From contig NC_086108.1 in the NCBI RefSeq assembly GCF_963921235.1, positions 21,514,001 through 21,578,000 of the forward strand: a stretch of DNA of 64,000 nt, in the 5' to 3' direction. The stretch comes from Mobula hypostoma (taxonomy: Eukaryota). Numbering within the stretch: position 1 is the stretch's first letter; every line of letters begins with the position of its first letter. Under the pieces are notes generated by a model. The model was given only the letters and a program-made list of their open reading frames with translations. It ran no database searches and was not told where the DNA came from. The translations under genes were made by a program, and so were the position numbers. Of this stretch, positions 1 through 56,825 are shown one piece after another.

Positions 1-1933
1 AGCATTTTTCACTTCTATTTCAGATTTTCAGCTTCAACATTTTTTAAAAAATTCTTTACTGTCAAAAAATCTCTTCAATGTTAACAATAAAATAGCCACA
101 CATGTCCCAAAAGTACAATTTCACAGAATGTCAAAATCACTCCTGAGTTGAGGGATTCCGACCACATCCTGCTCGGTTATGACCAGAATTATCACCTTCA
201 CGTAATGCTTGACAGAATCTGTACCATATTGCCAAGGAGAGTGGAGAAATAAAGAGGAATTTGCCTGTCTTTTGGGAGCTGGCTGATGGCATTGCCACAG
301 ATGTACCTTGGTGTTCCCATTCTGTCACCATGCAAAAAGATGAGACTTCTGCAGGTAAATTTTGCATTGTGCTTGTGCATAGATGCATATGATGGTAAAA
401 CTGACTTAGACCTTGATTTTGATATGCAAACAATTTGAAAGATGCCCATGTTTACAAAACTTACTCAAATATTTTACTGCACTGATGTACAATAGAGCCA
501 ACCATTTAGTTTTCACCATGTACCAAATGTGTCATCTCCAAAGATGAAGTCCCAATCAGATGTAGGTCTTGGAGAGCTGGTCCTTGTATTTGAATAATGG
601 ACAAAATTTTCTATTCCACATCCCTTTCTTGAATACATTTCTTTTAAAACCTTTTAACACACCCAAATCTAATTATGTCAAAAAGATGAACTTCAGGTCA
701 CCAAATAAAAATTCTCAACATAGAAGCTTGCAGGCCAAATATCTAAATAAAGTTGCCCAGATGATCTGGAATCAGGAATTAATTACAAATTCCAACAAAG
801 AGCTGTTCCTCATTACCAGACGCCTGAAAATCAATTTCAAACAATGAGGCTATTTCAGGGAGGAATCCAGTGTGCACAAAGAAGCACTGTGTTGCCAAAA
901 CCACTTAGCCAGATTTTAGTATTGCTGCATAAATAGTATGAAATACACAGTTGTTCACTAGTTTCCTCAGGCTATTTATTTCACATAAATAAAAAGTGAT
1001 GCCTGCTCACCATTACAATTGTTAACAACATGCGGCCCAATGCTGCTGTCTAGTCTGAAATCCTTCATTCTCACAAACAGAAGTTGTCATGCTGTACAAC
1101 GTGATCACAAATGCTTGCCATATGGACCATCATAAATCTGAGGCTTAATTTAAGCCTTGCCTTTCACCTTACCTTAGCGACCATAAGCCCAGGTGCTGAT
1201 ATTTTCAGCCAATACCAAACAATGTTCTCTTTGACCCTTTTAATACAATCCAACAATATGAAATAAAACACATCACGTTCAAGGAGGAAGGAGTAAGAAG
1301 GAAATACTTATATTAATTTCGCGCATTTAATGACTTCAGGAAAATATTTTACAGTCAACTAAATACTTTCCAATCAGAAAACTTCTGTTAAAAGTAACAG
1401 CTAATATGCATGGAGGAGTCTGACAAACCACATCTTTGTGATGTTTTGGGGGCTAAACATTGCACAGAATAACAATTAAACTCCTTGTTTTCTTTAAATA
1501 ATGCATAGTATTTTGTTGTCACACTAAGGATTCATGGATTACATCACAAACCTAAACAGATCACCATCTACTTTTCTAGTACTGCATTGTTTAAATTTAA
1601 ATTACATAATCAAGTTTCTGCAGACTGATAAAAATCAATTTTAATTTTCATATTCATTCACTATTTTACATGGATTTATGGCAAACTCCCACACAATGGC
1701 TTAACTAATTATCCACCTATCAATGAAGCACATAAAATAAGTCAACTGTAGAAAATGGAGGCCTTTCAGCTGATAGAAAACTTTGAAAGATCACTTCCTC
1801 ACACATATCTTTGTCACATATTCCAGTGAAGCACAAGTCTTTAATGCTAATGAATTGAATAATCTTAATGTAAAAATATGAATGTGTCCAAAGGAACATA
1901 TAAGCCAGTGCATTATACATCAAATAAAAACGT

Positions 1934-2359
1934 AAACAACAGGAATTCTGCAGATGCTGGAAATTCAAGCAACACACACCAAAGTTGCTGGTGAACGCAG
2001 CAGGCCAGGCAGCATCTCTAGGAAGAGGTGCAGTCGACGTTTCAGGCCGAGACCCTTCGTCAGGACTAACTGAAGGAAGAGTGAGTAAGGGATTTGAAAG
2101 CTGGAGGGGGAGGGGGAGATGCAAAATGATAGGAGAAGACAGGAGGGGGAGGGATAGAGCCAAGAGCTGGACAGGTGATAGGCAAAAGGGGATACGAGAG
2201 GATCATGGGACAGGAGGTCCGGGAAGAAAGACGGGGGGGGGACCCAGAGGATGGGCAAGAGGTATATTCAGAGGGACAGAGGGAGAAAAAGGAGAATGAG
2301 AGAAAGAATGTGTGCATAAAAATGAGTAACAGATGGGGTACGAGGGGGAGGTGGGGATA
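1934..2359 (-). mobile_element. Penelope-like element terminal (pseudo-LTR) fragment carrying a hammerhead ribozyme
   Basis: Near-identical to 11345-11750 and 43022-43445; the latter is the 3' end of the RT/GIY-YIG element at 37624. Probable TSD aaataaaaa(c/t)gt at 1922-1933 and 2360-2371. Confidence 0.85.
2032..2067 (-). ncRNA. Minimal type I hammerhead ribozyme motif
   Basis: Minus strand AGUC-CUGACGA-AGGGUCUCGGCCU-GAAAC-GUC-GACU: CUGANGA and GAAA core, stem I AGUC/GACU, GUC cleavage triplet. Confidence 0.8.
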
Positions 2360-11281: not shown

Positions 11282-11344
11282 ACTTAAAACTTAAATTTCT
11301 TCGACATCTTAAAAAAATTTTGAACAATGCATCATCAACCATCT

Positions 11345-11750
11345 GTTATTTATTTTTTGACACATATTCTTTCTCTCACTCTCCTTTTTCTCCCTCTGTC
11401 CCTCTGACTATACCCCTTGCCCATCCTCTGGGTTCCCCCCCCCGCCCTTGTCTTTCTTCCCAGACCTCCTGTCCCATGATCCTCTCGTATCCCCTTTGCC
11501 AATCACCTGTCCAGCTCTTGGCTCCATCCCTCCCACTCCTGTCTTCTCCTATCATTTTGGATCTCCCCCCTCCCCCTCCCACTTTCAAATCTCTTACTAA
11601 CTCTTCCTTCAGTTAGTCCTGACGAAGGGTCTCGGCCTGAAATGTCGACTGTTCCTCTTCCTAGAGATGCTGCCTGGCCTGCTGCGTTCACCAGCAACTT
11701 TGATGTGTGTTGCTTGAATTTCCAGCGTCTGCAGAATTCCTGTTGTTTAC
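11345..11750 (+). mobile_element. Penelope-like pseudo-LTR fragment
   Basis: Reverse complement of the 1934-2359 family sequence. Confidence 0.85.
11615..11650 (+). ncRNA. Minimal hammerhead ribozyme motif (variant GAAAU)
   Basis: agtc-ctgacga-agggtctcggcct-gaaa-tgtc-gact; C>T change in the stem III palindrome. Confidence 0.65.
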
Positions 11751-11869
11751 AAAATTAAAACTTGCTGAATGTAATCTGTCCCATAATTTCAAGTTTCTTT
11801 ACAGACAAAGAGCTTATAATGATCAAAACTAGTTCTTTATATCGCTTGCAGTATAGTGTCAAAATGGTT

Positions 11870-12810: not shown

Positions 12811-13045
12811 AACACAAAATACTCTGCAGATGCTGGGGTCAAAGCAACACTCACAAACGCTGGATGAACTCAGCAGGTCGGGCAGCATATGTGGAAACGA
12901 CGAGTCGACGTTTCCGGCCGGAACCCTTCGTCAGGACTGTAGAGGGAAGGGGCAGAGGCCCTATAAAGAAGGTGGGGGGAGGGTGGGAAGGAGAAGGCCT
13001 GGCCTTTCGGGTTCCGGCCCGAAACGTCGACTCATTGTTTCCACG
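12811..13045 (-). mobile_element. Penelope-like terminal fragment with a short inverted copy of its end
   Basis: Hammerhead motif on the minus strand at 12903-12938; inverted partial copy gggttccggcccgaaacgtcgactc at about 13009-13033. Confidence 0.8.
12903..12938 (-). ncRNA. Minimal hammerhead ribozyme motif
   Basis: Minus strand AGUC-CUGACGA-AGGGUUCCGGCCG-GAAAC-GUC-GACU. Confidence 0.7.
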
Positions 13046-13559
13046 TATATTTTTTTGCATAGCACTTAAAGCCAAATTGGAGAGGTCACTGGTTTAAAAA
13101 AAAGCAACACTTAAGTCTTTGTTTTAGTAAACTCTTACACTGAACTGATTTCGTAACCTATGGACTCTCTTTCAAGAACTCTACAACTCATGTTCTCAGT
13201 ATTATCTACCTATTTATTGTATTCGCACAGCTTGTCTTCTTTTGCATATGTTTTGTCAGAATATGCCTGCAAATTTTCATCAGTTCTATGGTATTTCTTT
13301 GTTCTATTGTGAATACCTGCATGAAAATGAATCTCAGAGTAGTATATGGTGACATATATGTACTTGGATAATAAATTTATTTTTAACTTTGGTTTCCTCC
13401 CTCCTAGCACAGATAACACCTAAGTAGACAGCTGTTTACTCATTCCTGTTTTGCCTCCTGAGAAATAGGTTAGTATTCTGAAAGAGATCCATCTATGGCA
13501 CAATATAAAAATATTAAGCTGGGCCAATAAACCTACTTACATCAATGACAATAAAAGTT

Positions 13560-18700: not shown

Positions 18701-20126
18701 TATCCTCCCTCACACACTGTCTACCTGCTTTCATTTTTTTGTGAACTAACCTCCTCTCTCCTAGTCTCTTCAATTTGATTCCCTCCCCCCAACCATTCTA
18801 GTTTAAAGTCATCTCAGTAGCCCTCGCAAATCTCCCCGCCAGGATATTGGTCCCCCTAGGATTCAAGTGTAACCCGTCCTTTTTGTACAGGTCACACCTG
18901 TGCCAAGAGAGGTCCCAATGATCCAGAAACTTGAATCCCTGCCCCCTGCTCCAATCCCTCAGCCACGCATTTATCCTCCACCTCACTGCATTCCTACATC
19001 GCTGTCGCGTGGCACAGGCAGTAATCCCGAGATTACTACCTTTGCGGTCCTTTTTCTCAACTCCCTTCCTAATTCCTTATATTCTTCTTTCAGGACCTCT
19101 CCCCTTTTCCTACCTATGTCATTGGTACCTATATGCACCATGACCTCTGGCTCCTCACCCTCCCACTTCAGGATCTCTTGGACGTGATCAGAAACATCCC
19201 AGACCCTGGCACCAGGGAGGCAAACTACCATCCGGGTCTCCAGACTGCATCCACAGAATCGTCTATCTGACCCCCTAACTATCGAGTCCCCTATTACTAC
19301 TGCCCTCCTCTTCCTTTCCCTACCCTTCTGAGCTACAGGGACGGACTCTGTCCCGAAGGTTCGGTCATTGTTGCTTCCCCCAGGTATGCTGTCTCCCCAA
19401 ACAGTACTCAAACAGGAGTACTTATTGTCAAGGAGCACAGCCACAGGGGTACTCTCTATTACCTGATTCTTCCTATTCCCCCTCCTAACCGTGACCCATT
19501 TGTCTGCCTCCCGTGGCCCCGGTGTGACCACCTGCCTGTAACTCCTCTCTATCAACTCCTCGCTCTCCCTGACAAGACAAAGGTCATCGAGCTGCAGCTC
19601 CAGTTCCCTAACACGGTCTCTTAGGAGCTGCATCTTGACGCACCTGGCGCAGATGTGAACGTCCGGGAGGCTGGGAGACTCCACGACCTCCCACATCTGG
19701 CACTGAGAACAACAAGCTGCCTTCACACTCATACTTCCCTCTCTCCTCAAATAACAACAAAAAATGAATACCAATCCTTCCTTGCCCCGCCTGTTTCCAC
19801 CTAAGCCCATTGAGCCAAAGCCCTTGAGCCTTCACTCTGCTCCTGACTCATTCCGCAGCCCTCAAACTATGCCGCCCGCTGTATAAGGCTCTGTTCCTTT
19901 TAAATCTTCTGCACTTCACTCCCTGATGTCACACGCCTGCGCAGTCCCACCTCTCTGAACACAGATGAAAAAAACCCGAAAAACTCAAAAAAGGCTTCTT
20001 CCGCACTCCTGCTCCAATTCTCAGACTTCCTTCTCCAAATTAAACCCAAATCAGGATTTGTGTCTTTTTAAACCTTCCGTGCTCCACTCCCCGACGTCAC
20101 ACGCCTGCGCAGTCCCACCTCTCTCT
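15752..20126 (-). mobile_element. Near full-length CR1 LINE (ORF1 zinc finger/leucine zipper + SGNH esterase; ORF2 APE + RT), frameshifted
   Basis: ORF1 CSQCQMWE, IGDSIVRG, HIGTNDI, DGLH; ORF2 CIYFNARS, SDHN, YMDFSKAFDKV, GVPQGSVLGP, KYADDTK; (accatata)n 3' tail at about 15752. Confidence 0.95.
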
Positions 20127-20615: not shown

Positions 20616-23600
20616 CCAGCAATGGAAAGGGAAAAACTTCGAAAGAAAAATCGGAAGATATGCCTGTCTGGGCTGAGCGTTTAGAACGTGCGTTGATGGC
20701 TCTTGACAAGAAAGTAGACAATAACACTTCTGAGATGAAGTCGTTCTGACAGAGTTTTCAGTTTGTAGAGGAAAATATTATTTCCTTGAATACTGAGCTT
20801 AAAGAGTCGAAGCGTCAGACAGCAAATATTTCAGCTCGCTTGGAACAGGATAGTCGATTTAGAAGCAAGATCTCGTCGGAATAACATTCGAATTGTTGGA
20901 CTGAAGGAAGGTTCTGAGAGTGGGAATTTATTGGACTATTTTGCTAATTTGTTTCAATTGCTGTTTCCGGATATTCTACCTCAGCCTCCCGCTATTGAGG
21001 GAGCACACAGAATTTTCTGAAATCTCAAGATTCAGCTAAATCATGGGTAATTTTGGTCAGTTTTCTTAGTTTTATAGTTAAAGACCAAATCATAAAATGT
21101 GCAAGAAAACAGAGAGTTTTTAAATTTAATGGCTCCGAGATTCGTTTTTATGAAGATTATCCACGGGAAGTTATGGAACAGCGGATCAAATTTGTTCCAG
21201 CTATGAAGATAGCCCATGCTAAGGGATTATTCCCATCACTTCGCTATCCAGCCTGGTTATTTCCTAAAGATTCAACTCCATGTGTTTTTTTGGATCCCCA
21301 AGAGGCATTGGACTATGTTAATTCTATTTTGGAGGTGGCTGAGGTCTGAATGGTATTAGGGCTGCTGAATAACTTTTCGAAAGAAAACAGGCTTTGAAGA
21401 TTTCTGATATGTTGAAGATATCCTTTGATCGATGGACTATTTAAAGAAGATGTGAGCTTCTTGATTTGACTGATGGATGACTTTTCCGAAGTCTGCTTGG
21501 TTTACTGAGTGAATTAACACAACAGACAGATTGTTAACTGGTTTGATTATCTGTTTTTATTTTTCCTTTTCTTCATTAATTAAGTGATAGTTTATATAGA
21601 CTTTTGCTTATATACATATATAGCGAGGAGTGCTGAGTAAATAGTTAATTAGTTTTAGTTTTTCCTGTCAAAAACAGTGTTTTTTCATCAGGCAGCAAGT
21701 CAAAGGGATAATGGTGCCGATTTTTTTCGTTAGAGATTATATTGTTTAGGTCTAATTTTATTGCTTTGACGTCTCTAGAGAATGTTTTTGCATTCCCCAG
21801 TTTATTTTTAATGATTAAGTATAAACACCATTTTTTTTCTCTGTAGGGCTTTATCATCTTGGGACCGTGTGTTTTTTTTGTAAAGGGGAGGGGGGAATTA
21901 AGAAAAACTTTTAAAATTACTATTTAAATTGAGTAGCTCGCAGAGTTCTGTTTCTTTTTTCTTTTCCTATGGGGATGCATTCCGGCTTATTTCTTCTTTT
22001 TGTCGGATTTCTATCTTTTGGGATGGTGGGAGGATTGGGGGTAGTATTGAATTATAGGTCTTACAGTTGGATTAATTTTATTTTTTTTCGTTTTTTTTCT
22101 CTTCTCGTATTTTTTCCCATTATGGAGTTCCAGAGCATGCGTGTTTTCAATATGGTTATACTCATCACCGCCATTTTTGATTAGCCCGCATTGGTATGCA
22201 CGTATTTTCGTGTTAAAAAAAATATTTTATGGCAGTTAAACAGATAAACGTTATCAGTTGGAACGTACGTGGCTGGAATCACCCTATTAAGCAAAATAAG
22301 ATTTTTAAGACATTGGAAGGACCTTCAATATCATGCCACTTGTCAAAATAAAACAAAGGGGGTATCTATTTTTATTAAATCTAATATTTTATTTATCCAA
22401 GAAGATATCGTGTCAGATATTAATGGTAGATTTTTAATTGTCAAAGGAACAATTTGTAATAGAAAAATTGCTCTGGTTGATCTATATGGACCTAATGTAG
22501 GTGATCTTTCTTTTTTTAAAAATGTAAACAACAGGAATTCTGCAGATGCTGGAAATTCAAGCAACACACATCAAAGTTGCTGGTGAACGCAGCAGGCCAG
22601 GCAAGAATAATATGTTGGATCTGGAGGCTGGTGGGGTGGTAGGTGAGGACCAGGGGAACCCTATTCCTAGTGGGGTGGCGGGAGGATGGAGTGAGAGCAG
22701 ATGTACGTGAAATGGGGGAGATGCGTTTAAGAGCAGAGTTGATAGTGGAGGAAGGGAAGCCCCTTTCTTTAAAAAAGGAAGACATCTCCCTCATCCTAGA
22801 TAGAATAATATGTTGGACCCGGAGGTTGGTGGGGTGGTAGGTGAGGACCAGGGGAACCCTATTCCTAGTGGGGTGGCGGGAGGATGGAGTGAGAGCAGAT
22901 GTACGTGAAATAGGGGAGATGCGTTTAAGAGCAGAGTTGATAGTGGAGGAAGGGAAGCCCCTTTCTTTAAAAAAGGAAGACATCTCCCTCGTCCTAGATA
23001 GAATAATATGTTGGACCTGGAGGCTGGTGGGGTGGTAGGTGAGGACCAGGGGAACCCTATTCCTAGTGGGGTGGCAGGAGGATGGAGTGAGAGCAGATGT
23101 ACGTGAAATGGGGGAGATGCGTTTAAGAGCAGAGTTGATAGTGGAGGAAGGGAAGCCCCTTTCTTTAAAAAAGGAAGACATCTCCCTCGTCCTAGATTTT
23201 TAGAATAATATGTTGGACCCGGAGGCTGGTGGGGTGCCTGGCCTGCTGCGTTTACCAGCAACTTTGATGTGTGTTGATTGTTTTCTTAAAAATGTATCTG
23301 GTTTATTGCCAGATTTAAATGAATAAATGTTGTTAATGGGTGGTGATTTTAACTCTTGTTTAAATCCTTTGATTGACAAGAGTTCAACCAATCAGCGGCT
23401 TCCGAGTTGTTCAGCATCACTTATTAACTCTTTTTTAATTGATTATGGTTTGATCGAAATCTGGAGAAATTTAAATCCTGATGATAGAGATTATTCTTTT
23501 TATTCACATGCTCATAAAAAATATTCGAGAATTGATTATTTTATAGCTGATTTTCAATTTTTATCCAAAGTCCAGAAATGTGAATATGACGCTATCGCCG

Positions 23601-25445
23601 TTTCGGATCATGCGCCTTTAAGCTTAACTTTTGAATTGAATGATGTTGGTATTATAAATTTGGCTTGGTGTTTTCCAGAAAATTTATTACTCAGATAAAA
23701 GATTTTTTTCATTTTAATAATACGGAGATGTGTCAAAATTGATCATATGGAATGAACTTAAAGCATATTTGCGAGATCAGATAATCTGCTATTTGGCTAA
23801 GCTTAAGAAACAGACAAAAATAGAGTTAGATAAGATTTCAAAACAAATTAAAGACTTGGATAATATTTATGCAGTTTCTCCAAACATTGATTTATTTAAA
23901 CAAAGGGTTGAACTTCAATCACAATATAATTTACTATTAACTTATCCTATTGAAAGAAATTTGCTTAAATTAAAAAGTCTATTTTATATGTTTGGAGACA
24001 AAAATAATAAGCTATTAGCATCCCAGTTAAAGGCAACTGGAGCTAAAAGACAAATTTTAAAAATTCGTAAGGGAGATGGTAGACATCAATAAAATTTTTC
24101 AGGACTTTTACAGTGAACTCTATAAATCTCAGTTTCCAGCTGATCCTTCTAAAATGAATGCCTTTTTACAAAGACTGATTTTCCTAGAATATCTGTTGAA
24201 GATCAACAAACTCTTGATACTCCTATTACTGAAAAGGAAATTCAGAAAGCTATTCTTTCAATGCAATCTGGTAAAGCTCCTGGATTGGATGGTTTTTCCT
24301 GTCGGATTTTATTAAAAAATTTGAAGAATTGCTTTCTCCATGTATGTTGGAAATGCTCAAAGATTCTTTTTTGTTAGAATTATCTCCCACATTTTATGAA
24401 GCTTCTATTTCTTTAATTCTTAAGAAAGATAAAGACCCTACTGACTGCGCTTCATATAGACCTATTTCACTATTAAATGTGGATGCTAAAATTCTTTCAA
24501 AAATAATGGCTAATCGACTGGAGAATATTCTAGCTAAAATTATTTCTCAGGACCAAGCAGGTTTTATAAAAGGCCGTTATTCCTTCTCTAATACTCGGAG
24601 ACTGTTAAATGTTATATACTCATCCCTGTCTAAGACTCCCCAATGTGTTGTTTCTCTTGATGCTGAAAAGGCATTTGATAGAGTTGAATGGAAATACTTA
24701 TTTAACGTTTTAGAGAAATTCAACATCAGTACTAATTTAAATAAGTGGATTAGAATGATATAAAAAAGCCCTATTGCCACAGTTATTACTAATAATTGCA
24801 GATCTCCACTTTTTCGACTTTCACGGGGTACAAGACAAGGATGTCCATTAAGTCCCCTGTTATTTAATTTGATGTTGGAACCTTTGGCTTTTGCACTTCG
24901 TGAAGCTAAAGATATTCAAGGAATTTCCATAAATGGGACTATTCATAAGATGTCCCTTTATGCTGATGATCTTTTAGTTTATGTTTCGAGTCCTGAAGAA
25001 TCCATTCCTAGTGTATTGAAATTATTAAATGAATTTGGAAAGTTTTCGGGATATAAATCAAACCTTAATTAAAGTTAACTATTTCCTTTAAATGATTCTG
25101 CTTCTATATAAGATGACATTCATTTTAAACATACGGACTCGTTCAAATATTTTGGTACTATCATCACTAAAAATTATGGAGACCTTTATAGAGCTAATTT
25201 GGTTCCCTTAGTGGATTTTATGAAGCAAATATCTTGTAGATGGAATCCACTTACACTTTCATTAGCTGGCTGAATTCATGCAGTTACCAAAATTCAACAA
25301 AATTTTTATATGTATTTCAAAATATTCCTATTTTTTAACTAAGAAGTTTTTTGATCAGGTTGATTCTATTATTTCATCTTTTGTTTGGAATAATAAGAGA
25401 CCAAGAATTGGAAAAATATCATTTACAAAAATCAAAAAAGAATAT
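20616..25445 (+). mobile_element. L1-clade LINE, 5' part (ORF1, spacer, ORF2 APE + RT), inverted relative to its 3' part
   Basis: ORF1 RSRRNNIRIVGL and IRFYEDYP; ORF2 starts MAVKQINVISWNVRG near 22229; GGDFN, SRIDYF, SDHAP, SLDAEKAFDRV, RQGCPLSPLLF, LYADD; multiple frameshifts. Confidence 0.92.
22527..23280 (-). mobile_element. Penelope-derived insertion: 198-bp tandem unit x3.2 between inverted pseudo-LTR ends
   Basis: Units start at 22604, 22802, 23000 and 23202 and encode EMSSFFKERGFPSSTINSALKRISP...; about 16-bp TSD tttt(t/c)ttaaaaatgta at 22511-22526 and 23281-23296. Confidence 0.9.
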
Positions 25446-35851: not shown

Positions 35852-37622
35852 CAGTGGCATGCAAAAGTTTGGGCACCCCTAGTCAAAATTTCTGTTACTG
35901 CGAATAGCTAAGCGAGTAAAAGATGAACTGATTTCCAAAAGGCATAAATTAAAGATGACACATTTCTTTAATATTTTAAGCTGGGTGGCAGTGTTAGCAG
36001 TGAGGAGGATGCTAAGAGGATGCAGGATGACTTGGATAGGTTGGGTGAGTGGGCAAACTCATGGCAGATGCAATTTAATGTGGATAAATGTGAAGTTATC
36101 CACTTTGGTGGCAAAAATAGGAAAACAGATTATTATCTGAATGGTGGCCGATTAGGAAAAGGGGAGGTGCAACGAGACCTGGGTGTCATTATACACCAGT
36201 CATTGAAAGTGGGCATGCAGGTACAGCAGGCGGTGAAAAAGGCGAACAGTATGCTGGCATTTATAGCGAGAGGATTCGAGTACAGGAGCAGGGAGGTACT
36301 ACTGCAGTTGTACAAGGCCTTGGTGAGACCACACCTGGAGTATTGTGTGCAGTTTTGGTCCCCTAATCTGAGGAAAGACATCCTTGCCATAGAGGGAGTA
36401 CAAAGAAGGTTCACCAGATTGATTCCTGGGATGGCAGGTCTTTCATATGAAGAAAGACTGGATGAACTAGGCTTGTACTCGTTGGAATTTAGAAGATTGA
36501 GAGGGGATCTGATTGAAACGTATAAGATCCTAAAGGGATTGGACAGGCTAGATGCGGGAAGATTGTTCCCGATGTTGGGGAGGTCTAGAACGAGGGGTCA
36601 CAGTTTGAGGATAGAGGGGAAGCCTTTTAGGACCGAGGTTAGGAAAAACTTCTTCACACAGAGAGTGGTGAATCTGTGGAATTCTCTGCCACAGCAAACT
36701 GTTGAGGCCAGTTCATTAGCTATGTTTAAAAGGAAGTTAGATATGGCCCTTGTGGCTACAGGGGTCAGGGGGTATGGAGGGAAGGCTGGGTTCTGAGTTG
36801 GATGATCAGCCATGATCATAATAAATGGCGGTGCAGGCTCGAAGGGCCGATTGGCCTACTCCTGCACCTATTTTCTATGTTTCTATGTTTCTATGTAAAA
36901 CTTATTTATTTCCATATTTTACAGTTTCAACATAACAAAAAAGGAAAAAAGGCCCGAAGCAAAAGTTTGGGCACCCTGCTTGGCAGTACTTAGAAACACC
37001 CCCTTTGGCAAGTATCACAGCTTGTAAACGCTTTTTGTAGCCACCTACGAGTCTTTCAATTCTTGTTCGGGAGATTTTCACCCATTCTTCCTTGCAGAAG
37101 GCTTCTAGTTCTGTGAGATTCTTGGGCCACCTTGCATGCACTGCTCTTTTGAGGTCTATCCACAGACTCTCAATGATGTTTAGGTCGGGGGACTGTGAGG
37201 ACCATGGCAAAACCTTCAGCTTGCGCCTCTTGAGGTAGCCCATTGTGGATTTTGAGGTGTGTTTAGGTTCATTATCCTGTTATAGAAGCCATCCTCTTTT
37301 CATCTTCGGCTTTTTTACAGATGGTGTGATGTTTGATTCCAGAATTTGCTGGTATTTAATTGAATTCATTCTTCCCGCTACCAGTAAATGTTCCCCGTGC
37401 CATTGGCTGCAACACAAGCCCAAAGTATGATCGATCTACCCCCATGCTTAACAGTTGGAGAGGGGTTCTTTTCATGAAATTCTGCACCCTTTTTTCTTCA
37501 AACATACCTTTGCTCATTGCAGCCAAAAGTTCTATTCAAAAGGTCCAAAGGAACATCTAAACAAGCCTGATGCATTTTGGAAACAAGTCCTGTGGGCTGA
37601 TGAAGCTAAAATAGAACTTTTT
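35852..37622 (-). mobile_element. Tc1 transposon remnant (one TIR and transposase C-terminal part), interrupted by a CR1
   Basis: TA + TIR cagtggcatgcaaaagtttgggcacccc; inner direct repeat gcaaaagtttgggcaccc near 36960; WSSQSPDLNIIESLW and KRLQAVILAKGG (ORF 36902..37243). Confidence 0.9.
35981..36896 (+). mobile_element. Young 5'-truncated CR1 LINE
   Basis: Uninterrupted 258-aa ORF2 C-terminus (36020..36796) and (ttctatgt)n tail. Confidence 0.95.
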
Positions 37623-37623
37623 T

Positions 37624-39395
37624 GGGGTGCTGTTGTAGTCTGGTGTACCGACCTCTAACTTGCCGAGGCACAGCGACAACTCGCGGATACCTCCTCTTAT
37701 TTACCCCTCGATCATGACTCCACTAAGGAGCACCAGGCCATTATCTCCCACACCATCACCAACTTTATCAGCTCAGGGGATCTCCCATGCACTGCTACCA
37801 ACCTTATAGTTCCCACACCCCGTACTTCCCGTTTCTATCTCCTACCCAAGATCCACAAACTGCCTGTCCAGGTAGACCCATTGTCTAAGCTTGCTCCTGC
37901 CCCACTGAACTCATTTCTGCATACCTCGACACTGTTTTATTCCCCCCTTGTTCAATCCCTTCCCACTTCGTGAGTCATCTCATGCTCTGAATTTTTTCAA
38001 TGAATTTAAGTTCCCTGGCCCCCACCGCTTTATTTTCACCATGGATGTCCAGTCCGTATATACCTCCATCCCCCACGAGGAAGATCTCAAAGCTCTCCGC
38101 TTCTTTTTGGATTCCAGACCTAACCAGTTCCCCTCTACCATCACTCTCCTCCGTCTAGCGGAATTAGTCCTTATTCTTAATTTCTCCCTTGGCTTCTCCC
38201 ACTTCCTCCAAACTAAAGGTGTAGCCATGGGCACCCGTATGGGTCCCAGCTATGCCTGCCTTTTTGTTGGCTTTGTGGAACAATCCATGTTCCAAGCCTA
38301 TACAGGTATCTGCCCACCACTTTTCCTTCGCTACCGACGACTGCATTGGCGCTGCTTCCTGCACGCATGCTGAGCTCGTTGACTTCATTAACTTTGCCTC
38401 CAACTTTCACCCTGCCCTTAAGTTTACCTGGTTCATTTCCGACACCTTCCTCCCCTTTCTTGATCTTTCTGTCTCTATCTCTGGAGACAGCTTATCTACT
38501 AATGTCTACTATAAGCCTACGGACTCTCACAGCTACCTGAACTATTCCTCTTCCCACCCTGTCTTTTGTAAAGATGCCACTTCCTTCTCACAATTCCTCT
38601 GTCTCCGCCGCATCTGCTCTCAGGATGAGGCTTTTCATTCCAGGACAAAGGAGATGTCCTCCTTTTTTAAAGAAAGGGGTTTCCCTTCCTCCACCATCAA
38701 CTCTGCTCTCAAACACATCTCTCCCATTTCACGCACATCTGCTCTCACCTTATCCTCCTGCCACCCGACTAGGAATAGGGTTCCCCTTGTCCTCACCTAC
38801 CACCCCACCAGCCTCCGGGTCCAACATATTATTCTCCGTAACTTCTGCCACCTCCAATGGGATCCCACCACTAAGCACATCTTTCCCTCCCCCCCCCTTT
38901 ACTCCTTTCCACAGCAATCGCTCCCTATGCGACTCCCTTGTCCATTTGTTCCCCCCATCCCTTCCCACTGATCTCCCTCCCGGGACTTATCCTTGTAAGC
39001 GGAACAAGTGTTACACATGCCCTTACACTTCCTCCCTCACCACCATTCAGGGCCTCAGACAATCCTTCCAGGTGAGACGACACTTCACCTGTTAGTCGGC
39101 TGGTGTGATATACTGTGTCCGGTGCTCCTAATGCGGTCTTCTATATATTGGCGAGACCCAACGCAGGCTGAGAGGTCGTTTCGCTGAACACCGATGCTCT
39201 GTATGCCAGAAAAAGCAGGATCTTCCAGTGGCCACACATTTTAATTCCACGTCCCATTCCCATTCTGATATGTCTATCCACGGCCTCCTCTATTGTCAAG
39301 ATGAAGCCACACTCAGGTTGGAGGAACAACACTTTATATTCCGTCTGGGTAGCCTCCAACCTAATGGCATGAACATTGACTTCTCTAACTTCCGT
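37624..39395 (+). mobile_element. Penelope-like element RT + GIY-YIG endonuclease, frameshifted
   Basis: FYLLPKIHK, FTMDVQSVYTSIP, GVAMGTRMGPSYA, PFLDL, YYKPTDSH, CKRNKCYTC, VIYCVRC...LLYIGET; continues at 43022 after the CR1 insertion. Confidence 0.92.
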
Positions 39396-42300
39396 TATAA
39401 CCATATAATAATTACAGCACGGAAACCGGCCATCTCAGCCCTTCTAGTTCATACCGAATTCTTACTCTCACCTAGTCCCACCAACCTGCACTCAGCCCAT
39501 AACCCTCCATTCCTTTCCTGTCCATATATCTATTATGCTATTAAATGCTGTTCAATTTAACTTTAAACAACAACATCGAACCTGCCTCAACCACTTCTGC
39601 TGGAAGCTCGTTCCACATAGCTACCACTCTCTGAGTAAAGTAGTTCCCCCTCATGTTACCCCTAAACTTTTGCCCTGTAACTCTCAACTCATGTCCTCTT
39701 GTTTGAATCTCCCCCACTCTCAATGGAAAAAGCCTATCCACATCAACTCTATCTATCCCCCCTCATAATTATAAATACCTCTATCAAATCCCCCCCTCAA
39801 TCTTTTACGTTTCAAAGAATAAAGACCCAACTTGTTCAACCTTTTTCTGTAACTTAGGTGATGAAACCCAGGTAACATTCTAGTAAATCTCCTCTGTACT
39901 CTCTCTATTTTGTTGACATCTTTCCTATAATTCGGTGACCAAAACTGTACACAATACTCCAAATTTGGCCTCACCAATGCCTTCTACAATTTCAACATAA
40001 CATCCCAACTCCTATACTCAATGCTCTGATTTATAAAGGCCAGCATACCAAAAGCTTTCTTCACCAGCCTATCCACGAGATTCCACCTTGAGGGAACTAT
40101 GCACCATTATTCCTAGATCCCTCTGTTCTACAGCATTCTTCAATGCCCTACCATTTACCATGTATGTCCCATTTTGATTCGGCCTACCAAAATGTAGCAC
40201 CTCACATTTATCAGCATTAAACTCCATCTGCCATCTTTTAGTCCACTCTTCTATCTGGCCTAAATCTCTCCGAAAGCTTTGAAAACCTACTTCATTATCC
40301 ACAACTCCACCTATCTTTCTTTCTTTTTCAATCTTTTCATTAGTTTCATAAAATATAAACATAACATAATAATAGTACAAAGTTATTGGGAATACATTGT
40401 TGTACTTAACATGAATAATTATAGAACCAAATAATACTTAATTAACAGAACTCCAAATCATATAGGATACCAATGAATAATATAGAACAAAATTGTTTCC
40501 TTTACCTGACACAATTCAATATCCTTCTCCTTAGTGAATACCGAAGAAAAGAAATTGTTCAGAATCTCCCCCATCTCTTTTGGCTCCACACATAGCTGTC
40601 CACTCTGATTCTCCAAAGGACCAATTTTATCCCTCACTATCGTTTTGCTATTAATATAACAGTAGAAACCCTTGGGATATATTTTCACCTTACTTGCCAA
40701 AGCAACCTCGTATCTTCTTTTAGCTTTTCTAATTTCTTTAAGATTTTTTTTATATTCCTCAAGCACCTCATTTACTCCATGCTGCCTATATTTGTTGTAG
40801 ATATCTCTCTTTTTCCGAACCAAGTTTCCAATATCCCTTGAAAACCATGGCTCTCTCAAACTTTTAACCTTTCCTTTCAACCTAACAGGAACATAAAGAT
40901 TCTGTACTCTCAAAGTTTCACCTTTAAATGACATCCATTTCTCAATTACATTCTTCCCATAAAACAAATTGTCCCAATCCACTCCCTCCAAGTCCTTTCG
41001 CATCTCCTCAAAGTTAGCCTTTCTCCAATTAAAAATCTCAACCCTGGGTACAGTCCTATCCTTCTCCATAATTATATTGAAACAAATAGCATTGTGATCA
41101 CTGGACCTGAAGTGCTCCCCAACGCAAACCTCCGTCACCTGACCTATCTCATTCCCTAACAGGAGATCCAACACTGCCCCTTCTCTAGTTGGTACCTCTA
41201 TAGTTTTTTGCAGCAATATATCTTGCACATATTTTACAATCTCCAAACCATCCAGCCCTTTTACAGTATGGGCTTCCCAGTCTATGTGTGGAAAATTAAA
41301 ACCTCCCACAATCACAACATTGTGCTTACTACAAATATCTGCTATCTCCTTACAAATTTGCTCCTCCAATTCTCGCTCTCCATTTGGTGGTCTATAATGT
41401 ACCTCTATAAATGTCACTACACTTTTCCCATTCCTCAATTCCACCCAAATAGCCTCCCTAGACGAGCCCTCTTATCTATCCTGCCAGAGCACCGCTGTAA
41501 TATTTTCTCTGACAAGCAATGCAACACCTTCCCCTCTTGTCCCTCTGATTCTATCATACCTGAAACAATTAAATCCAGGAATACTTAGTTGCCAATCACA
41601 CCCCTCCTGTAACCATGTTTCACTAATAGCTACCACATCATATTTCCAGGTATCAATCCATGCTTTCAGCCCATCCACCTTCCTTATAATGCTCCTAGCA
41701 TTAAAATAAATGCATTTAAGAAATTTTCCACCTCTTACTCTCTGGTTATCACTCATGGTGCAAACAACTTTACTATTTTCTTTTTCTTCCTTCTTCCCTA
41801 CATCTGTTCCAACACTCTGGTTCCCCTCCCCCATCGTATCTAGTTTAATTCCACCGAAGCCTCTCTAGCAAACCTACCTTCAAGAATATTTGTCCCCATC
41901 CAGTTCAGATGTAGACCGTCCCGCCGGAACAGGTCCCACCTTCCCTGGAAAACTGCCCAATTATCTATAAATCTGAAGCCCTCCCTCCTGCACCATGTCT
42001 TCAGCCAAGTGTTGATCTGCGCTATCCTACTATTTCTAAACATGCTTGCATGTGGCACTGGTAGCAATCCTGACCCTAACCCTATCCTGGAGGTCCTGTC
42101 CTTTAACTTGGCACCTAACTCCCTAAACTCACCTTTCAGGACCTCCTCACTCTTCCTACCCACGTCATTGGTCCTTACATGGACCACGACATCCGGCTGC
42201 TCACCCTCCCTCTTGAGAATACCAAGAACTTGATCAGAGATACCACGGACCTTGACACCAGGGATGCAACAGACCATCCGGGATTCTCGATCTTTTCCAC

Positions 42301-43021: not shown

Positions 43022-43445
43022 AATGCCCCACCCTCCCTTCATACCCCGTCCCTTATTTATTTATTATTCTTATTTTCTTTTCTTTTCCCTTTTTATGTCT
43101 CTTTTTTCTCCCTCTTTCCCTCTCACTATAACTCCTTGCCCATCCTCTGGGCTTCCCCGCTCCTTTTCTTTCTCCCTAGGCCTCCCATCCCATGATCCTC
43201 TCCCTTCTTCAGCCTGATATCTCTTTTGCCAATCAACTTTCCAGCTCTTATCTCCATCCCTCCCCCTCGTGTCTTCTCCTATCATTTCAGATCTCCCCTC
43301 CCCCTCCCACTTTCAAATCTCTTACTATCTCATCTTTCAGTTAGTCCTGACGAAGGGTCTCGGCCTGAAACGTCGACTGTACCTCTTCCTATAGATGCTG
43401 CCTGGCCTGCTGCATTCACCAGCATTTTTTTATGTGTGTTGCTTG
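43022..43445 (+). mobile_element. Penelope 3' pseudo-LTR (continuation of 37624-39395)
   Basis: Resumes with aatgcccc, the sequence that follows the ORF stop in the related copy near 56340; same family as 1934-2359 and 11345-11750. Confidence 0.85.
43343..43378 (+). ncRNA. Minimal hammerhead ribozyme motif
   Basis: agtc-ctgacga-agggtctcggcct-gaaac-gtc-gact, identical to the motif at 2032-2067. Confidence 0.8.
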
Positions 43446-44264: not shown

Positions 44265-47025
44265 CTTTAGGTACATTAAGAGTAAAAGGGTGTTGAGGGA
44301 GTGCATGGATCATCTTAAGATCAGCATGGCAGTCTGTCTGCAGAGCCAAATGAAACTGGTGAGATTTTTAATGGAGTACTGTGCTCAGTTCTGGTCGCCT
44401 CACTATAGGAAGGATGTGGAAACCATACACATACAAAGGGTGCAGAGAATATTTACAAGGATGTTCAAGCAACACACATAAAAGTTGCTGCAGCCAGGCA
44501 GCATCTCTAGGAAGAGGACTGGGGAGCATGCCTTATGAGAATAGGTTGAGTGAATGCGGCCTTTTTTCCTTGAAGCAACAGAGGATGAGAGGTGACCAGA
44601 CAGAGGTGTATAAGATGATGAGAGGCATTAATCGTGTGGATAGTCAGAGGCTTTTCCCCAGGACTGGAATGGCTAGCATGAGAGGGTACAGTTTTAAGGT
44701 GGTTGGAAGTAGGTACAGAGGAGATGTCAGAGGTATGTTTTTTGTGCAGAGAGTGGTGAGTGCGTGGAATGGGCTGCCGGCGACAGTGGTGGAGGCAGAT
44801 ACGATAGGGTCTTTTAAGAGACTTCTGGGCAGGCACATGGAGCTCAGAAAAATAGAGGGCTATGGGTAACCCTAGGTAATTTCTAAGGTAAGGACATGTT
44901 CGGCAAAGCTTTGTGGGCTGAAGGGCCTGTATTATGCTGTAGGTTTTCTATGTTTCTATTTCACTTCCGTTTTTACTGGGGAGAAAACAACAATGGAATT
45001 TGGGGAAATAAGTGGTATTATGTTAGACTACAAACCAGTAGGGAGGAAGTGCTGGTCACCCTAAAGGGCATTAAGTGGATAAGTTATCAGAGCCTAACCT
45101 AGTGTATTCCTGGACCTTGTAGAAAGCTAAAAAAGAAATTCTTGAGGCCCTTGCAGAGATTTTTACTTCACCTCCAGCCACAGGTGAGGACTCACAGGAC
45201 TGGAGAATGGCTAATTTGGTATCATTGCTTAACAAGGGTATCAACCAAAAACAAGTCAGGGAACTACCGACCAATTGGTCTGACATCAGCAAATGCTGGA
45301 AGGAATTTTAAAGCATGAGATCTACCAAATTTGGAGAGACAGGGTCAAATTTGAGACTCTCAACACAGCTTATTGTGTGGGAAGTTATGTCTGACTAATC
45401 TCTTGGAAGTAACCAAGAAGGTAAATGAGGGTAAGGCAGTGACAGTTGTCTGTATGGGCTTTAGCAAGAATATTTACAAGTGCAGGTGAGTCTATAAAGA
45501 TAGATTACAAAGGATCCAGGGAGAGTTTAGACCCATCAGCGCGTCATTTGTTGGTGGGGAGACTGAAGGAGCTGGACTTGGTGTTGAGCATGTTGCTACC
45601 TGCGCCAGAAAGGAATCAGAGGAATTGTGCACAGTCTAAAAGCAAGTGATTGCCTTACTTGCTTTTCTTTTGATTGCAAGACCCTGTTGGACATTGTTAA
45701 TGTGGAATGCTGCAAATCTAATTCAGTGCTTTATTGGTGTGCAGCAGGGGCAGAAAGGAGATAGATGGCTTCAGTCATAGTGAGGGCCAAGCCTAAAGCC
45801 ACCATGTTGCCTGTTTACATCCGGCCAGGAGAAAGGCATTAGAGTCAGCGCGTTTCACTGGAGGCGGTGCGGCATGGTGTCCACGCTGGAGTCGGTGCTG
45901 CCCCCCACCTTCCCTTCCTCACCCCCCATATTCGCTCGGAGGAAGACAAGCTGTATTGTGTTTGACTGCAGACTGCTGCACCATTCGTGGATTCAGGACT
46001 ATAATTTGTGTGACTGCATTTTACTGATATCTCATATGTCTACTAGCTTATAGTCATAGTCATAACCATAGTCATACTTTATTGATCCCAAGGGAAATTG
46101 GTTTTCATTACAGTTGCACCATAAATAATTAAATAGTAATAAAACCATAAATAATTAAATAGTAATATGTAAATTATGCCAGGAAATAAGTCCAGGACCA
46201 GCCTATTGGCTCAGGGTGTCTGACCCTCCAAGGGAGGAGTTGTAAAGTTTGATGGCCACAGACAGGAATGACTTCCTATGACGCTCTGTGTTACATCTCG
46301 GTGGAAAGAGTCTCTGGCTGAATGTACTCCTGTGCCCAACCAGTCCATTATGTAGTGGATGGGAGACATTGTCCAAGATGGCATGCAACTTGGACAGCAT
46401 CTTCTTTTCAGACACCACCGTCAGAGAGTCCAGTTCCATCCCACAACATCACTGGCCTTACACAATGAGTTTGTTGATCCTGTTGGTGTCTGCTACCCTC
46501 AACCTGCTGCCCAGCACACAACAGCAAACATGATAGCACTGACCACCACAGACTCGTAGAACATCCTCAGCATCGTCCGACGGATGTTAAAGGACCTCAG
46601 TCTCCTCAAGAAAATAGAGACGGCTCTGACCCTTCTTGTAGACAGCCTCAGTGTTCTTTGACCAGTCCAGTTTATTGTCAATTCATATCCCCAGGTATTT
46701 GTAATGCTCCACCATGTCCACACTGATGCCATATATACTTTATGCTGTGTGTGACTGTTGGTACTGTGTTTTGCACCTTGGCCCTGGAGTAACACTGTTT
46801 CATTAGGCTGTGTTCATGTATGGTTGAAAAACATTAAACTCGTACTAATTGCTTCAGTGGAGGATGCAGAGAGTGATTGTTGAGGGTCATTTCTCAGACT
46901 GGAGGCCTGTGTCAAGTGGCTTTCATCCTGGGACCAATGTTGCTTGGAATTTATGTAAACAATTTGGATGCAACTGTACAAGGTGTTGTTAGTAAGTTTG
47001 TGCATGATATCAAAACAGGTGATGT
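44265..47025 (+). mobile_element. Nested cluster: old CR1 pieces, a younger CR1 3' end (about 44370-44960) and an unclassified element (about 45530-46845)
   Basis: YCAQFWSP and AWNGLP motifs; tctatgtttcta tail; older CR1 RT resumes at about 46850. Confidence 0.65.
46050..46730 (-). mobile_element. Rex1/Babar 3' fragment
   Basis: FLRRLRSFNI, SHPLH, RHRKSFLSVAIKLYN; (atagtc)n tail near 46050-46075. Confidence 0.85.
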
Positions 47026-47744: not shown

Positions 47745-48587
47745 TTCACTGCAATAATTGCAGAAAAGTACGACTTTATTTTTGGAAGGATACATCGGTT
47801 TAGGGCATATTTGCAAGATGGTTTGAGTCCTTACAAAGAACTGTATGATAGAAAAATGCGTGAGGCTCAGCAGTCAAGCATACTGTCGTTATGCCGATTG
47901 CATCGCCTCCGATCTGGGCTGACATTTATGTGCCGGGCAGCACCTAATTAATTAGCTTGTTTATTTCAGCTTTTTTCTTAAAGATATGTTGGGTGTCTCC
48001 CGGCCACCGCTGCACCCCTGCACGCTTCACAGATCGGTATCAGTTCGCTGCCCGGAGGGTGGGGGCCACTGCACCACCCCAACCTCCAACCACTCAGCCT
48101 AATACACCATCATCAGTGTGCTCAGTCTTCCCGATTCCCGTAAGTGATATTACACAGTACGTACGTTATTTCTACTTTATATAGGCTGTGTATTTTTATG
48201 TGTTATTTGGTATGATTTGGCAGCTTCATAGCTTAAAGGTTACTCGAGAGTGTTTTTGCCGAGAGCGCATGCGTGAGATTTTCTGCTGAGAGCGCTTGCG
48301 TGAGATTTTCGCTACGGAGAACAGTGCAGGCAATGATTGTAGGGAACTATTTCTACTTTATATAGGCTGGGTATTTATCACATATCATTCCTGCTTTTAC
48401 TATATGCTACTGTTATTTTAGGTTTTATGTGTTATTTGGCATGACTTGGTAGGTTATTTTTGGGTCTGCGAATGCTCACAAATTTTTCCCATATAAATAA
48501 ATGGTAATTGCTTCTTCGCTTTACGACCTTCCGGCTTATGAACCGTTTCATAGGAACGCTCTACCTTCGGATGGCGGGGGAAACCCG
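47745..48587. mobile_element. Tigger-like DNA element, partial
   Basis: Terminal ...ggatggcgggggaaacccg followed by TA; inverted relative to the copy at 50220. Confidence 0.75.
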
Positions 48588-48589
48588 TA

Positions 48590-50160: not shown

Positions 50161-50219
50161 GCTGTTGATAAATTTACTCAGCAGCCTGTGTGATGATCAA
50201 AACTGACTGATCAGTAGTA

Positions 50220-56154: not shown

Positions 56155-56825
56155 ATCAGAAAAAGTGGGATCTCCCAGCGGCCACCCATTGTAATTCCAT
56201 TTCCCATTCCCATTCCAATACGTCCATCCATGGCCTCTTCTACTATTGTGATGAGGCTGAACTTAAGTTGGACAACATCTTATATTCTGTTTGGGTAACC
56301 TCCAACCTGATGGCATGAATATCGATTTCTCAAACTTCTGATAATGCCCCCCACCTCCCCCCTTCACCATTTCCCATCCCTTTTTCCCTCTATTACTTTA
56401 TCTCCTTGCCTGCCCACTGCCTCCCACTGGTGCTCCTCCACACTTTCTTTTCTTCCATGGCCTTCTATCTCTTCCGAACTCCGAACTCTTCAGCAACACA
56501 CACAAAATGCTGGAGAGTCCAAAGGGTTTCGGCCCAAAACACTGACTGTATTTTTTTTCCATAGATGCTGCCTGGCCTGCTGAGTTCCTCCAGCAGCTTA
56601 TGTATGTTGCTTGGATTTCCAGCTCCTATCACCTATCACCTCGTGTTTCTCTCTCCCCTCCCCTGAGCTTTTAAACCTACTCAACATTTTTCTCCAGTCC
56701 TACCGAAGGGTTTCAGCCCAAAACATTGACTGTACTCTTTTCCTTGATGCTGCCTGGCCTGCTGAGCTCCTGCAGCATTTTGTATGTGTTGTTCAGATTC
56801 TGAGCATCTGCAAATTTTCTCTTGT
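56155..56825 (+). mobile_element. Old Penelope 3' fragment with tandem pseudo-LTRs and decayed hammerheads
   Basis: GIY-YIG C-terminal remnant; degenerate motifs near 56515-56550 and 56695-56732. Confidence 0.75.

What the first reader, a model, noticed from the sequence alone, without database searches (positions are those of the whole stretch)
22511..23296. 198-bp in-frame concatemer of an internal Penelope ORF segment between inverted ends
Seen: 3.2 head-to-tail copies of a 66-codon piece from between RT and GIY-YIG, giving a 221-aa repetitive ORF (22516..23181 minus). It is bounded by about 40-bp inverted copies of the Penelope end (aacacacatcaaagttgctggtgaacgcagcaggccaggca and its reverse complement) and a ~16-bp TSD in L1 ORF2. 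The same tcctaga junction recurs at each unit, with 4 extra nt at the third. The hammerhead part of the end is absent. Inference: rolling-circle reverse transcription of a small circular RNA or repeated template jumping by Penelope RT, telomerase-like in outcome; local tandem duplication is the alternative.
Basis: partly seen in the sequence, partly recalled or inferred. Interest (0 to 1): 0.7.

Follow-up and report, generated by a model that had tools for sequence, protein, structure and literature searches.

The report
Penelope insertion with repeated internal piece
A jumping gene in a ray-like fish genome left one insertion in which the same 197-base internal piece was written 3.2 times in a row, most likely because its copying enzyme kept jumping back to the same spot; the ends of the insertion are of an already known type, and the repeat looks like a one-off accident, not a gene.

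Summary
The array is real: 3.2 copies of a 197-nt piece of a Penelope/Poseidon-type ORF, between a 77-nt and an inverted 46-nt copy of the element's 3' end, inside a 16-bp TSD that interrupts an L1 endonuclease frame. The inverted ends, differing by a 31-nt tail, are the published PLE insertion pattern. 'In frame' is incidental: the third junction breaks the frame and 6 of 7 changes are non-synonymous. What is unusual: three different junction sequences (0, 1, 5 extra nt) all land on the same nucleotide, both arms stop at the same site, and the unit's other end coincides with an 11/12 inverted match to the pLTR 5 nt beyond that site. This favours repeated jumps back to a fixed end of one linear template during a single integration (about 0.5) over a closed RNA circle (about 0.08). 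At least one back-jump at integration is almost forced; later DNA-level expansion is not excluded (about 0.22). No genome was held and no laid run carried this locus, so recurrence is untested. Other PLEs show in-frame internal arrays of other periods (3 among 319 proteins). One locus, new variant of a known kind.

The parts
22511..22526 (.). left target-site duplication (16 bp, T/A-rich); its last 3 nt also fit the element's outer end
   Evidence: 15/16 identical to 23281-23296
22527..22603 (-). arm 1: 77-nt copy of the PLE 3' terminus from the outer RT start site; 22527-22557 is the 31-nt tail
   Evidence: matches window copies 1935-2011 and 11671-11747 with one difference each, both private to those copies
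22604..22800 (-). unit 1 (197 nt of the ORF between RT and GIY-YIG); entered directly from arm 1 with no added nucleotide
22801..22801 (+). junction 1: one added T
   Evidence: native sequence continues differently
22802..22998 (-). unit 2
22999..22999 (+). junction 2: one added T
23000..23196 (-). unit 3
23197..23201 (+). junction 3: five added T; breaks the reading frame
23202..23236 (-). partial unit 4 (33-35 nt); joins arm 2 through a 2-nt overlap
23235..23280 (+). arm 2: inverted 46-nt copy of the PLE 3' terminus from the inner start site (no tail); inner end at the same nucleotide as arm 1, within the 2-nt overlap
23281..23296 (.). right target-site duplication
22516..23181 (-). 221-aa repetitive ORF, a by-product: native frame of the element kept across two junctions, running out through arm 1
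22248..22526 (+). host L1-type ORF2, endonuclease part, 5' of the insertion (decayed)
23297..24763 (+). host L1-type ORF2 continued (weak Exo_endo_phos hit E 0.011 at 23327-23695; RVT_1 E 2.6e-21 at 24275-24760)
38639..38835 (+). single native copy of the same ORF piece in another, older PLE copy (about 37640-39396), used as reference; not part of the insertion
   Evidence: 90-92% identical to the units

Best explanation
One target-primed integration of a ray Penelope/Poseidon-type element, primed on both nicked strands (outer start site = 77-nt arm, inner start site = 46-nt arm). Both cDNAs left the 3'-end RNA at the same nucleotide. One of them jumped to the end of a short linear template holding 197 nt of the ORF, copied it to its other end, gained 1, 1 and then 5 untemplated (or tail-derived) nucleotides and jumped back to the same first nucleotide three more times; 33-35 nt into the fourth round it was joined to the second cDNA through a 2-nt overlap. 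The template was most likely one RNA fragment of the element (its cDNA copy is the alternative). A 12-14 bp helix between the unit's 5' end and the pLTR just inside the arm break may have held the two exit points together. Shown: anatomy, TSD, added nucleotides, common landing site, single source haplotype, the inverted match. Inferred: the order of synthesis, the template's nature, re-use of one molecule, any role of the helix.
For: (1) Three different junction sequences (arm+0, unit+1, unit+5 nt) land on the same nucleotide, and two different ones leave from the same nucleotide. (2) The added T's are not native: contigs of relatives continue past the unit end with ordinary ORF sequence (21 records in X1, 33 in X2 at 23196). 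(3) All three full units share the same letter at three sites where 38-65% of family depth has another letter (23101, 23125, 23140): one source. (4) Units are not detectably younger than the ends: 7 changes in 629 nt against 3 in 155 nt, Fisher p 0.42. (5) 0 of 6 other pLTR ends with the same 12-nt anchor in the window stop at the arm break, so the shared break asks for a shared cause. (6) The unit's 5' end is the best inverted match to the pLTR within 10 nt of the break: 11/12, reached by 0 of 3620 other positions; best duplex of the unit against the 412-nt pLTR, -23.1 kcal/mol. (7) Precedent: a purified Poseidon PLE extends both strands and starts at two sites that define the tail (PMC11167929); non-LTR RTs jump end to end after untemplated addition and give 2x-6x products (10.1101/2021.05.13.443781; PMC11371274).
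Against: One locus. Re-using one template needs the first copy to be displaced, which I cannot show for PLE RT; template jumping by a PLE RT was not among the results I read in PMC11167929 (parts 1-2 of 4). The age test is weak (wide, overlapping intervals: 0.4-2.3% and 0.4-5.6%). One CpG change is shared by units 1 and 3, as descent by duplication would give; independent hits are also plausible (p about 0.4). Absence of further shared changes favours one-shot synthesis by only about 2.5- to 4-fold. The inverted-match score was devised after seeing the match, and a second site inside the unit scores 10/11, so its real p is nearer 0.003-0.02. A 3-nt (natively 5-nt) direct repeat flanks the unit (2% by chance for 3 nt), which hints at microhomology-guided DNA slippage instead.
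Confidence: 0.5

Rival explanations
1. One back-jump at integration gave 1.2 (or 2.2) copies; the 35-nt (or longer) direct repeat then seeded unequal exchange or replication slippage in the germ line, and one junction later changed by 4 nt.
For: Keeps the phase of the array automatically. The T,C,T,C pattern at unit position 19 can come from one mutation and two unequal exchanges. Ends are nominally more diverged than units (1.9% against 1.1%). Lack of other shared changes has probability 0.40 for one later duplication and about 0.27 for two (rough model). In-frame internal arrays occur in other PLEs with periods of 28, 56 and 63 aa.
Against: Needs a 4-nt indel exactly at a junction on top of the exchanges; the age difference is not significant (p 0.42); it still needs the RT back-jump and does not explain the shared arm break.
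Confidence: 0.22
2. Hairpin-loop cycling: an ordinary two-armed product formed first (unit joined to the inverted pLTR through the 12-nt inverted match), giving a 46-bp stem closing a loop of about 200 nt. A polymerase (PLE RT in second-strand synthesis, or a host polymerase) stalled at the stem base, cycled round the loop and finally re-entered at the stem base.
For: Explains in one geometry the symmetric arm break, the fixed entry, the fixed exit and the inverted match. ORF-to-inverted-arm joints 4 and 10 nt from this break exist at other loci (one contig each in X2). Snap-back and microhomology joins are documented for R2 (PMC11371274) and PLE inverted repeats (PMC3846280).
Against: The 5 pLTR nucleotides expected between unit and arm in such a precursor are absent from all junctions; no such joint was listed (102 rows of table 5c and 393 loose ends were not shown); why arm 1 broke 5 nt from the match is left open.
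Confidence: 0.13
3. Rolling-circle reverse transcription of a covalently closed 198-nt RNA circle.
For: Head-to-tail copies of one haplotype with a partial last copy; two junctions identical. Circular PLE RNAs were proposed as templates for more-than-unit insertions (PMC4209133); retrozymes and circRNA-derived pseudogenes exist (10.64898/2026.07.22.740005; PMC4897178).
Against: Entry from arm 1 falls exactly on the junction (about 1 in 200 for a closed circle); the third junction differs; the unit holds no hammerhead-like motif and the junction is not a back-splice join (the AG lies inside the unit); the unit has no notable fold (z +0.61).
Confidence: 0.08
4. Assembly artefact.
For: No laid run spans the locus, so the array has no independent read support here.
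Against: Copies differ at 6 sites, all transitions, 3 at CpG (p 0.0014 for 6/6 transitions if errors were random); junctions hold non-native letters; TSD and L1 frame are coherent.
Confidence: 0.03

Closest known systems
Inverted-pLTR insertions of endonuclease-bearing PLEs with a one-sided 30-40 bp tail (Pen2a_Av and others, PMC3846280, abstract not read, passages; PMC8557442, passages; PAc of Anolis, PMC11167929, parts 1-2 of 4)
   Same: Inverted copies of the 3' end, one with a 31-nt tail; TSD; AT-rich target; RT then GIY-YIG order; hammerhead-like motif in the end repeat.
   Different: Published tandems are whole or 5'-truncated elements that include the pLTR. Here the repeated unit is purely internal, lacks pLTR and hammerhead, and is entered at the same nucleotide four times.
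[quoted passage not shown]
   Same: Multimers joined end to end with 0-5 untemplated nucleotides; jumps onto another RNA during TPRT.
   Different: Those multimers use many template molecules in excess and mostly in vitro or in engineered cells; here a natural germ-line insertion from a PLE RT, apparently from one template.
DRT2 concatemer synthesis and telomerase repeat addition (PMC12039810, passages)
   Same: Repeated copying of a fixed stretch of a linear RNA with fixed entry and exit; repetitive ORF results.
   Different: DRT2 and telomerase use a dedicated structured RNA, precise junctions and a function. Here junctions vary, the frame breaks at the third, changes are neutral, the unit has no notable fold, and one copy is known.
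Non-LTR retrozymes and circRNA-derived pseudogenes (10.64898/2026.07.22.740005, part 1 of 5; PMC4209133, passages; PMC4897178, passages)
   Same: Short head-to-tail repeats derived from PLE sequence or non-colinear junctions fixed in DNA.
   Different: Retrozymes carry a hammerhead in every unit and derive from the pLTR; circRNA pseudogenes show back-splice junctions. Neither holds here.

Membership tests
Endonuclease-bearing Penelope-like element (Penelope/Poseidon type) | RT followed by C-terminal GIY-YIG endonuclease | tested here: met
   Unit aligns between RT and GIY-YIG in homologues: P0136 RVT_1 E 2e-9 and GIY-YIG E 4e-5; P0005 GIY-YIG E 0.002 (below curated cut-off); 97% identical to a ray protein of this layout
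Endonuclease-bearing Penelope-like element (Penelope/Poseidon type) | Inverted pLTR pair with a 30-40 bp tail on one side | tested here: met
   77 nt against 46 nt, 31-nt tail
Endonuclease-bearing Penelope-like element (Penelope/Poseidon type) | Minimal hammerhead motif in the end repeat | tested here: inconclusive
   Core-like motif in five other end copies of the window, 24 nt inside the arm break; absent from this insertion; no Rfam hammerhead hit; cleavage not testable
Endonuclease-bearing Penelope-like element (Penelope/Poseidon type) | RT phylogeny places it in Penelope/Poseidon rather than Neptune/Nematis | not tested
   No tree built; clade label is from recall of the domain layout
Non-LTR retrozyme | Type I hammerhead in every tandem unit | tested here: not met
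   No motif match within 22511-23296
Non-LTR retrozyme | Unit derived from the pLTR | tested here: not met
   Unit is ORF sequence
circRNA-derived retrocopy | Back-splice junction (donor joined to upstream acceptor) | tested here: not met
   Junction keeps sequence on both sides of the nearest AG and has added nucleotides
circRNA-derived retrocopy | Circular RNA with this junction exists | not testable with these tools
   No listed holder on record as RNA; contigs only
DRT2/telomerase-type programmed repeat synthesis | Fixed entry and exit on a linear template | tested here: met
   Four entries at one nucleotide, three exits at one nucleotide
DRT2/telomerase-type programmed repeat synthesis | Precise, identical junctions and a selected product | tested here: not met
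   Junctions +1, +1, +5; third out of frame; 6 of 7 changes non-synonymous
DRT2/telomerase-type programmed repeat synthesis | Dedicated structured template RNA | tested here: inconclusive
   Unit alone folds no better than shuffles (z +0.61); a 12-14 bp unit:pLTR helix is predicted but unproven

The most novel reading that the evidence does not exclude
PLE reverse transcriptase, the sister group of telomerase, has a latent long-range repeat-addition activity: a helix between the ORF and the pLTR folds the RNA so that the enzyme, arriving at one structural point by either strand, is shunted again and again to the same entry nucleotide, DRT2-style, and such in-phase internal multimers recur at preferred boundaries across PLE families (an unrelated PLE, about 30% identical, has a 63-aa triple repeat whose two boundaries lie within about 3 codons of these).
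Probability: 0.12. Interest if true: 0.72.

Novelty: new variant of a known kind. Interest (0 to 1): 0.38.

Why it matters
How PLEs build their tandem and inverted insertions is still called undefined in the papers read (PMC8557442). A natural insertion in which one short internal template was copied four times from the same nucleotide would be a fossil record of template re-use by a telomerase-related RT, and it separates two standing ideas (circular RNA against jumps on linear RNA) by a simple, countable sign: whether the first entry is in phase with the repeat junction and whether junctions vary. It also shows one way new 100-200 bp tandem repeats can start. As it stands it is a single dead insertion without function.

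Tried and rejected
Whole-genome search for the junction: not possible, no genome held. Metagenome scan for the junction motif: 24 loci, none with similarity beyond the 19-29 nt around the motif, so chance. Viral contigs with a 25-nt arm motif: 0. Prokaryote genomes with P0103: 50 pattern matches, 0 confirmed, so no DNA for that array. Sequencing runs: no RNA holder listed; best share of words 0.52, about the share of the stretch that is PLE sequence. Read laying: X21 laid nothing (no test); X1, X2, X9 hold the family and related L1 copies, but no listed piece matches this locus closely or crosses its boundaries; no row for the one-T junction, but the 1% share filter and hidden rows make that no proof of absence. 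Pfam on the repetitive ORF: 13 hits, all below curated cut-offs, spurious. Rfam: nothing relevant. Selection on the ORF: rejected. Break at the hammerhead cut: rejected, 24 nt away. Back-splicing: rejected. Same-boundary array P0103: considered as evidence for conserved boundaries, but the repeat query selects arrays of similar period and phase, so I put the chance near 0.1 (estimate, not computed) and do not count it as support. Earlier scan notes: nothing by sequence, nothing near, no internal-concatemer note. Literature: ten searches returned no paper on internal multi-copy arrays in PLE insertions; the library lacks most subscription papers, and supplements were not opened.

Full report
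Observation. The array is in the sequence as described. Tandem Repeats Finder gives period 198, 3.2 copies at 22604-23236 with 96% matches; copy starts are 198, 198 and 202 apart. The minus strand is open from 23181 to 22516. A 46-nt inverted repeat (22558-22603 / 23235-23280, 96%) is by far the longest in the 10 kb around. A 16-bp duplication (15/16) flanks the whole, and the decayed L1-type endonuclease frames on either side are in phase when 770 nt are subtracted, which confirms a single insertion with a TSD. The copies differ at six sites, all transitions, three at CpG; random errors would give six transitions with p 0.0014. An assembly artefact is unlikely, although no run that I laid carries this locus.

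What the pieces are. The unit is 90-92% identical to a single native copy at 38639-38835 and 97% identical in protein to a ray PLE-derived protein labelled Mobula hypostoma by its source; other top hits are labelled Hypanus sabinus. It lies after the RT and before the GIY-YIG domain. The left end is a 77-nt copy of the element's 3' terminus, the right end an inverted 46-nt copy. The 31-nt difference is the published PLE tail: an optional 30-40 bp extension at one of the inverted ends (PMC3846280, passages; PMC8557442, passages), explained by two RT start sites, in an enzyme that extends both target strands (PMC11167929, parts 1-2 of 4). So the inverted ends are ordinary. Both arms stop 24 nt short of the putative hammerhead cut (the motif was located with a recalled consensus, and Rfam found no hammerhead), so the ribozyme did not set the break.

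The reading frame is incidental. The unit is 197 native nucleotides; one added T makes 198, a one-in-three chance; the third junction (202) breaks the frame. Of seven changes among the copies six alter an amino acid.

What is unusual. (a) Reading in the direction of cDNA synthesis, the arm enters the unit with no added base, then the unit re-enters itself with 1, 1 and 5 added T, always at the same nucleotide. The T's are not native: in two related genomes 21 and 33 contig records match the unit to its last letter and go on with ordinary ORF sequence, beside 79 and 69 records of a variant that departs three letters earlier. (b) Both arms end at the same nucleotide, within a 2-nt overlap on the right; 0 of 6 other ends with the same anchor in the window do. 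(c) The unit's 5' end matches, 11 of 12, the pLTR strand 5 nt beyond the arm break; 0 of 3620 other positions reach 11, and it is the best duplex of the unit with the 412-nt pLTR. I devised that score after seeing the match, and a second site inside the unit scores 10, so I rate the coincidence at p about 0.003-0.02. (d) All three full units share the same letter at three sites that are polymorphic in the family (38-65% other letter): one source.

Age. Units carry 7 changes in 629 nt (1.1%, 95% interval 0.4-2.3), arms and TSD 3 in 155 nt (1.9%, 0.4-5.6); Fisher p 0.42. The test cannot separate one-shot synthesis from an early duplication. One CpG change is shared by units 1 and 3; independent hits have probability about 0.4, and descent by unequal exchange would also give it. 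A rough model gives 0.40 and 0.27 for seeing no shared change after one or two later duplications.

Mechanism. A pure DNA duplication of a simple insertion fails, because the right junction lies 33-35 nt into the unit: a precursor without a back-jump would not hold the other 162 nt, unless it was the two-armed form of the hairpin model. So one return to the exact entry nucleotide happened at or near integration. A closed circle predicts identical junctions and an arbitrary entry point; neither holds. A linear template with a fixed end predicts in-phase entry and variable untemplated bases, as seen, and matches end-to-end jumping by R2 and group II intron RTs (10.1101/2021.05.13.443781, passages; PMC11371274, passages; PMC2718515, passages). 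I therefore favour repeated jumps on one short linear template during a twin-primed integration (0.5), then one jump plus later expansion (0.22), cycling round a hairpin loop closed by the two arms (0.13), a closed RNA circle (0.08) and artefact (0.03). The order of synthesis, the RNA nature of the template and the role of the predicted helix are inference. Against my reading: re-use of one template needs strand displacement that is not shown for this enzyme, and a 3-nt (natively 5-nt) direct repeat at the two unit ends (2% by chance) could point to microhomology-guided slippage.

Is it recurrent? No genome was held. I laid 4 of the 24 listed runs on 23035-23600. One laid nothing. Three hold the family at very high depth but not this locus as far as the listed pieces show. 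Of 15 joints listed, 4 are native continuity, 1 lies in the L1 flank, and of the other 10, five are deletions in the ORF piece, two join the ORF to an inverted arm 4 and 10 nt from this break, and three are back-jumps inside the same piece (periods about 77, 146 and 41 nt). Each rests on one contig with 21-35 letters on the short side, which the tool flags as weak. No row shows this junction, but filters and hidden rows leave low copy numbers open. Among 319 other proteins from four searches, three independent PLE-derived ones carry in-frame internal arrays in this region: 63 aa x3 (P0103, with P0229 in the same cluster), 28 aa x4-5 (P0230) and a 56-aa duplication (P0150); two further repeat-bearing proteins were set aside (zinc fingers in P0136; a repeat outside the matched region in P0309). 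Repeat queries enrich for such hits, so this is no rate. P0103's boundaries fall within about three codons of this unit's; the search selects for that, and I could not get its DNA. Internal back-jumps in PLE copies are thus not unique to this locus; the same boundaries twice is only a lead.

Comparison and novelty. It works like end-to-end jumping and resembles DRT2 or telomerase in outcome (PMC12039810, passages), but fails their defining precision and function. It is not a retrozyme (no hammerhead in the unit; 10.64898/2026.07.22.740005, part 1 of 5) nor a back-spliced retrocopy (PMC4897178, passages). Circular templates were proposed for whole-element tandems (PMC4209133, passages), not for internal pieces. 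Ten literature searches returned no description of internal multi-copy arrays in PLE insertions; the library is partial and supplements were not opened. Earlier scan notes report two-armed insertions as common in this genome and turns at short inverted matches; these are unchecked leads that agree with, but do not support, my reading.

Verdict. A real, well-preserved, functionless insertion: ordinary PLE ends with an unusual interior that probably records repeated template re-use by the RT. New variant of a known kind; interest 0.38; it would deserve about 0.7 if a genome-wide count or the in-vitro assay showed the behaviour to be a recurrent, structure-guided property of PLE RT.

Noticed in passing
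P0103 / P0229 (unnamed ENA proteins): A distant PLE (about 30% identical) with three in-frame copies of a 63-aa piece whose boundaries lie within about 3 codons of this unit's boundaries; DNA not obtainable.
   Followed up: partly
P0230, P0150: Further PLE-derived proteins with internal in-frame arrays in the same post-RT region: 28 aa x4-5 and a 56-aa duplication.
   Followed up: partly
window 56519-56826: Two direct, diverged copies of the PLE end piece about 184 nt apart (partial tandem of an older subfamily).
   Followed up: no
window 12823-13048: End piece of a different PLE family with a short fold-back (12887-12926 against 13009-13048, 90%) across its hammerhead-like motif.
   Followed up: no
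window 44464-44518: A 55-nt PLE end scrap inside a CR1-like copy; it stops 18 nt beyond the arm-break site, right after the stretch that is complementary to the unit's 5' end, and lacks about 13 nt internally.
   Followed up: no
window 1925-2336, 11339-11760, 43098-43445, 58535-58623: Further 5'-truncated ends of the same family; outer ends fall at two sites about 31 nt apart (tail present or absent).
   Followed up: partly
window 37640-39396: Longer, decayed PLE ORF copy (RT to GIY-YIG) of a sister variant, cut at its 3' side by a CR1-like copy; at its left it abuts DNA-transposon-like sequence (36930-37630; likeness recalled, not tested).
   Followed up: partly
window 47900-48591 / 50216-50880 and 50715-51075: Large inverted repeat pair (84%, about 700 nt) and an imperfect palindrome of about 360 nt; not examined.
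   Followed up: no
window 19883-19956 / 20050-20124: Two 62-75 nt copies 168 nt apart at the 5' end of a CR1-like element.
   Followed up: no
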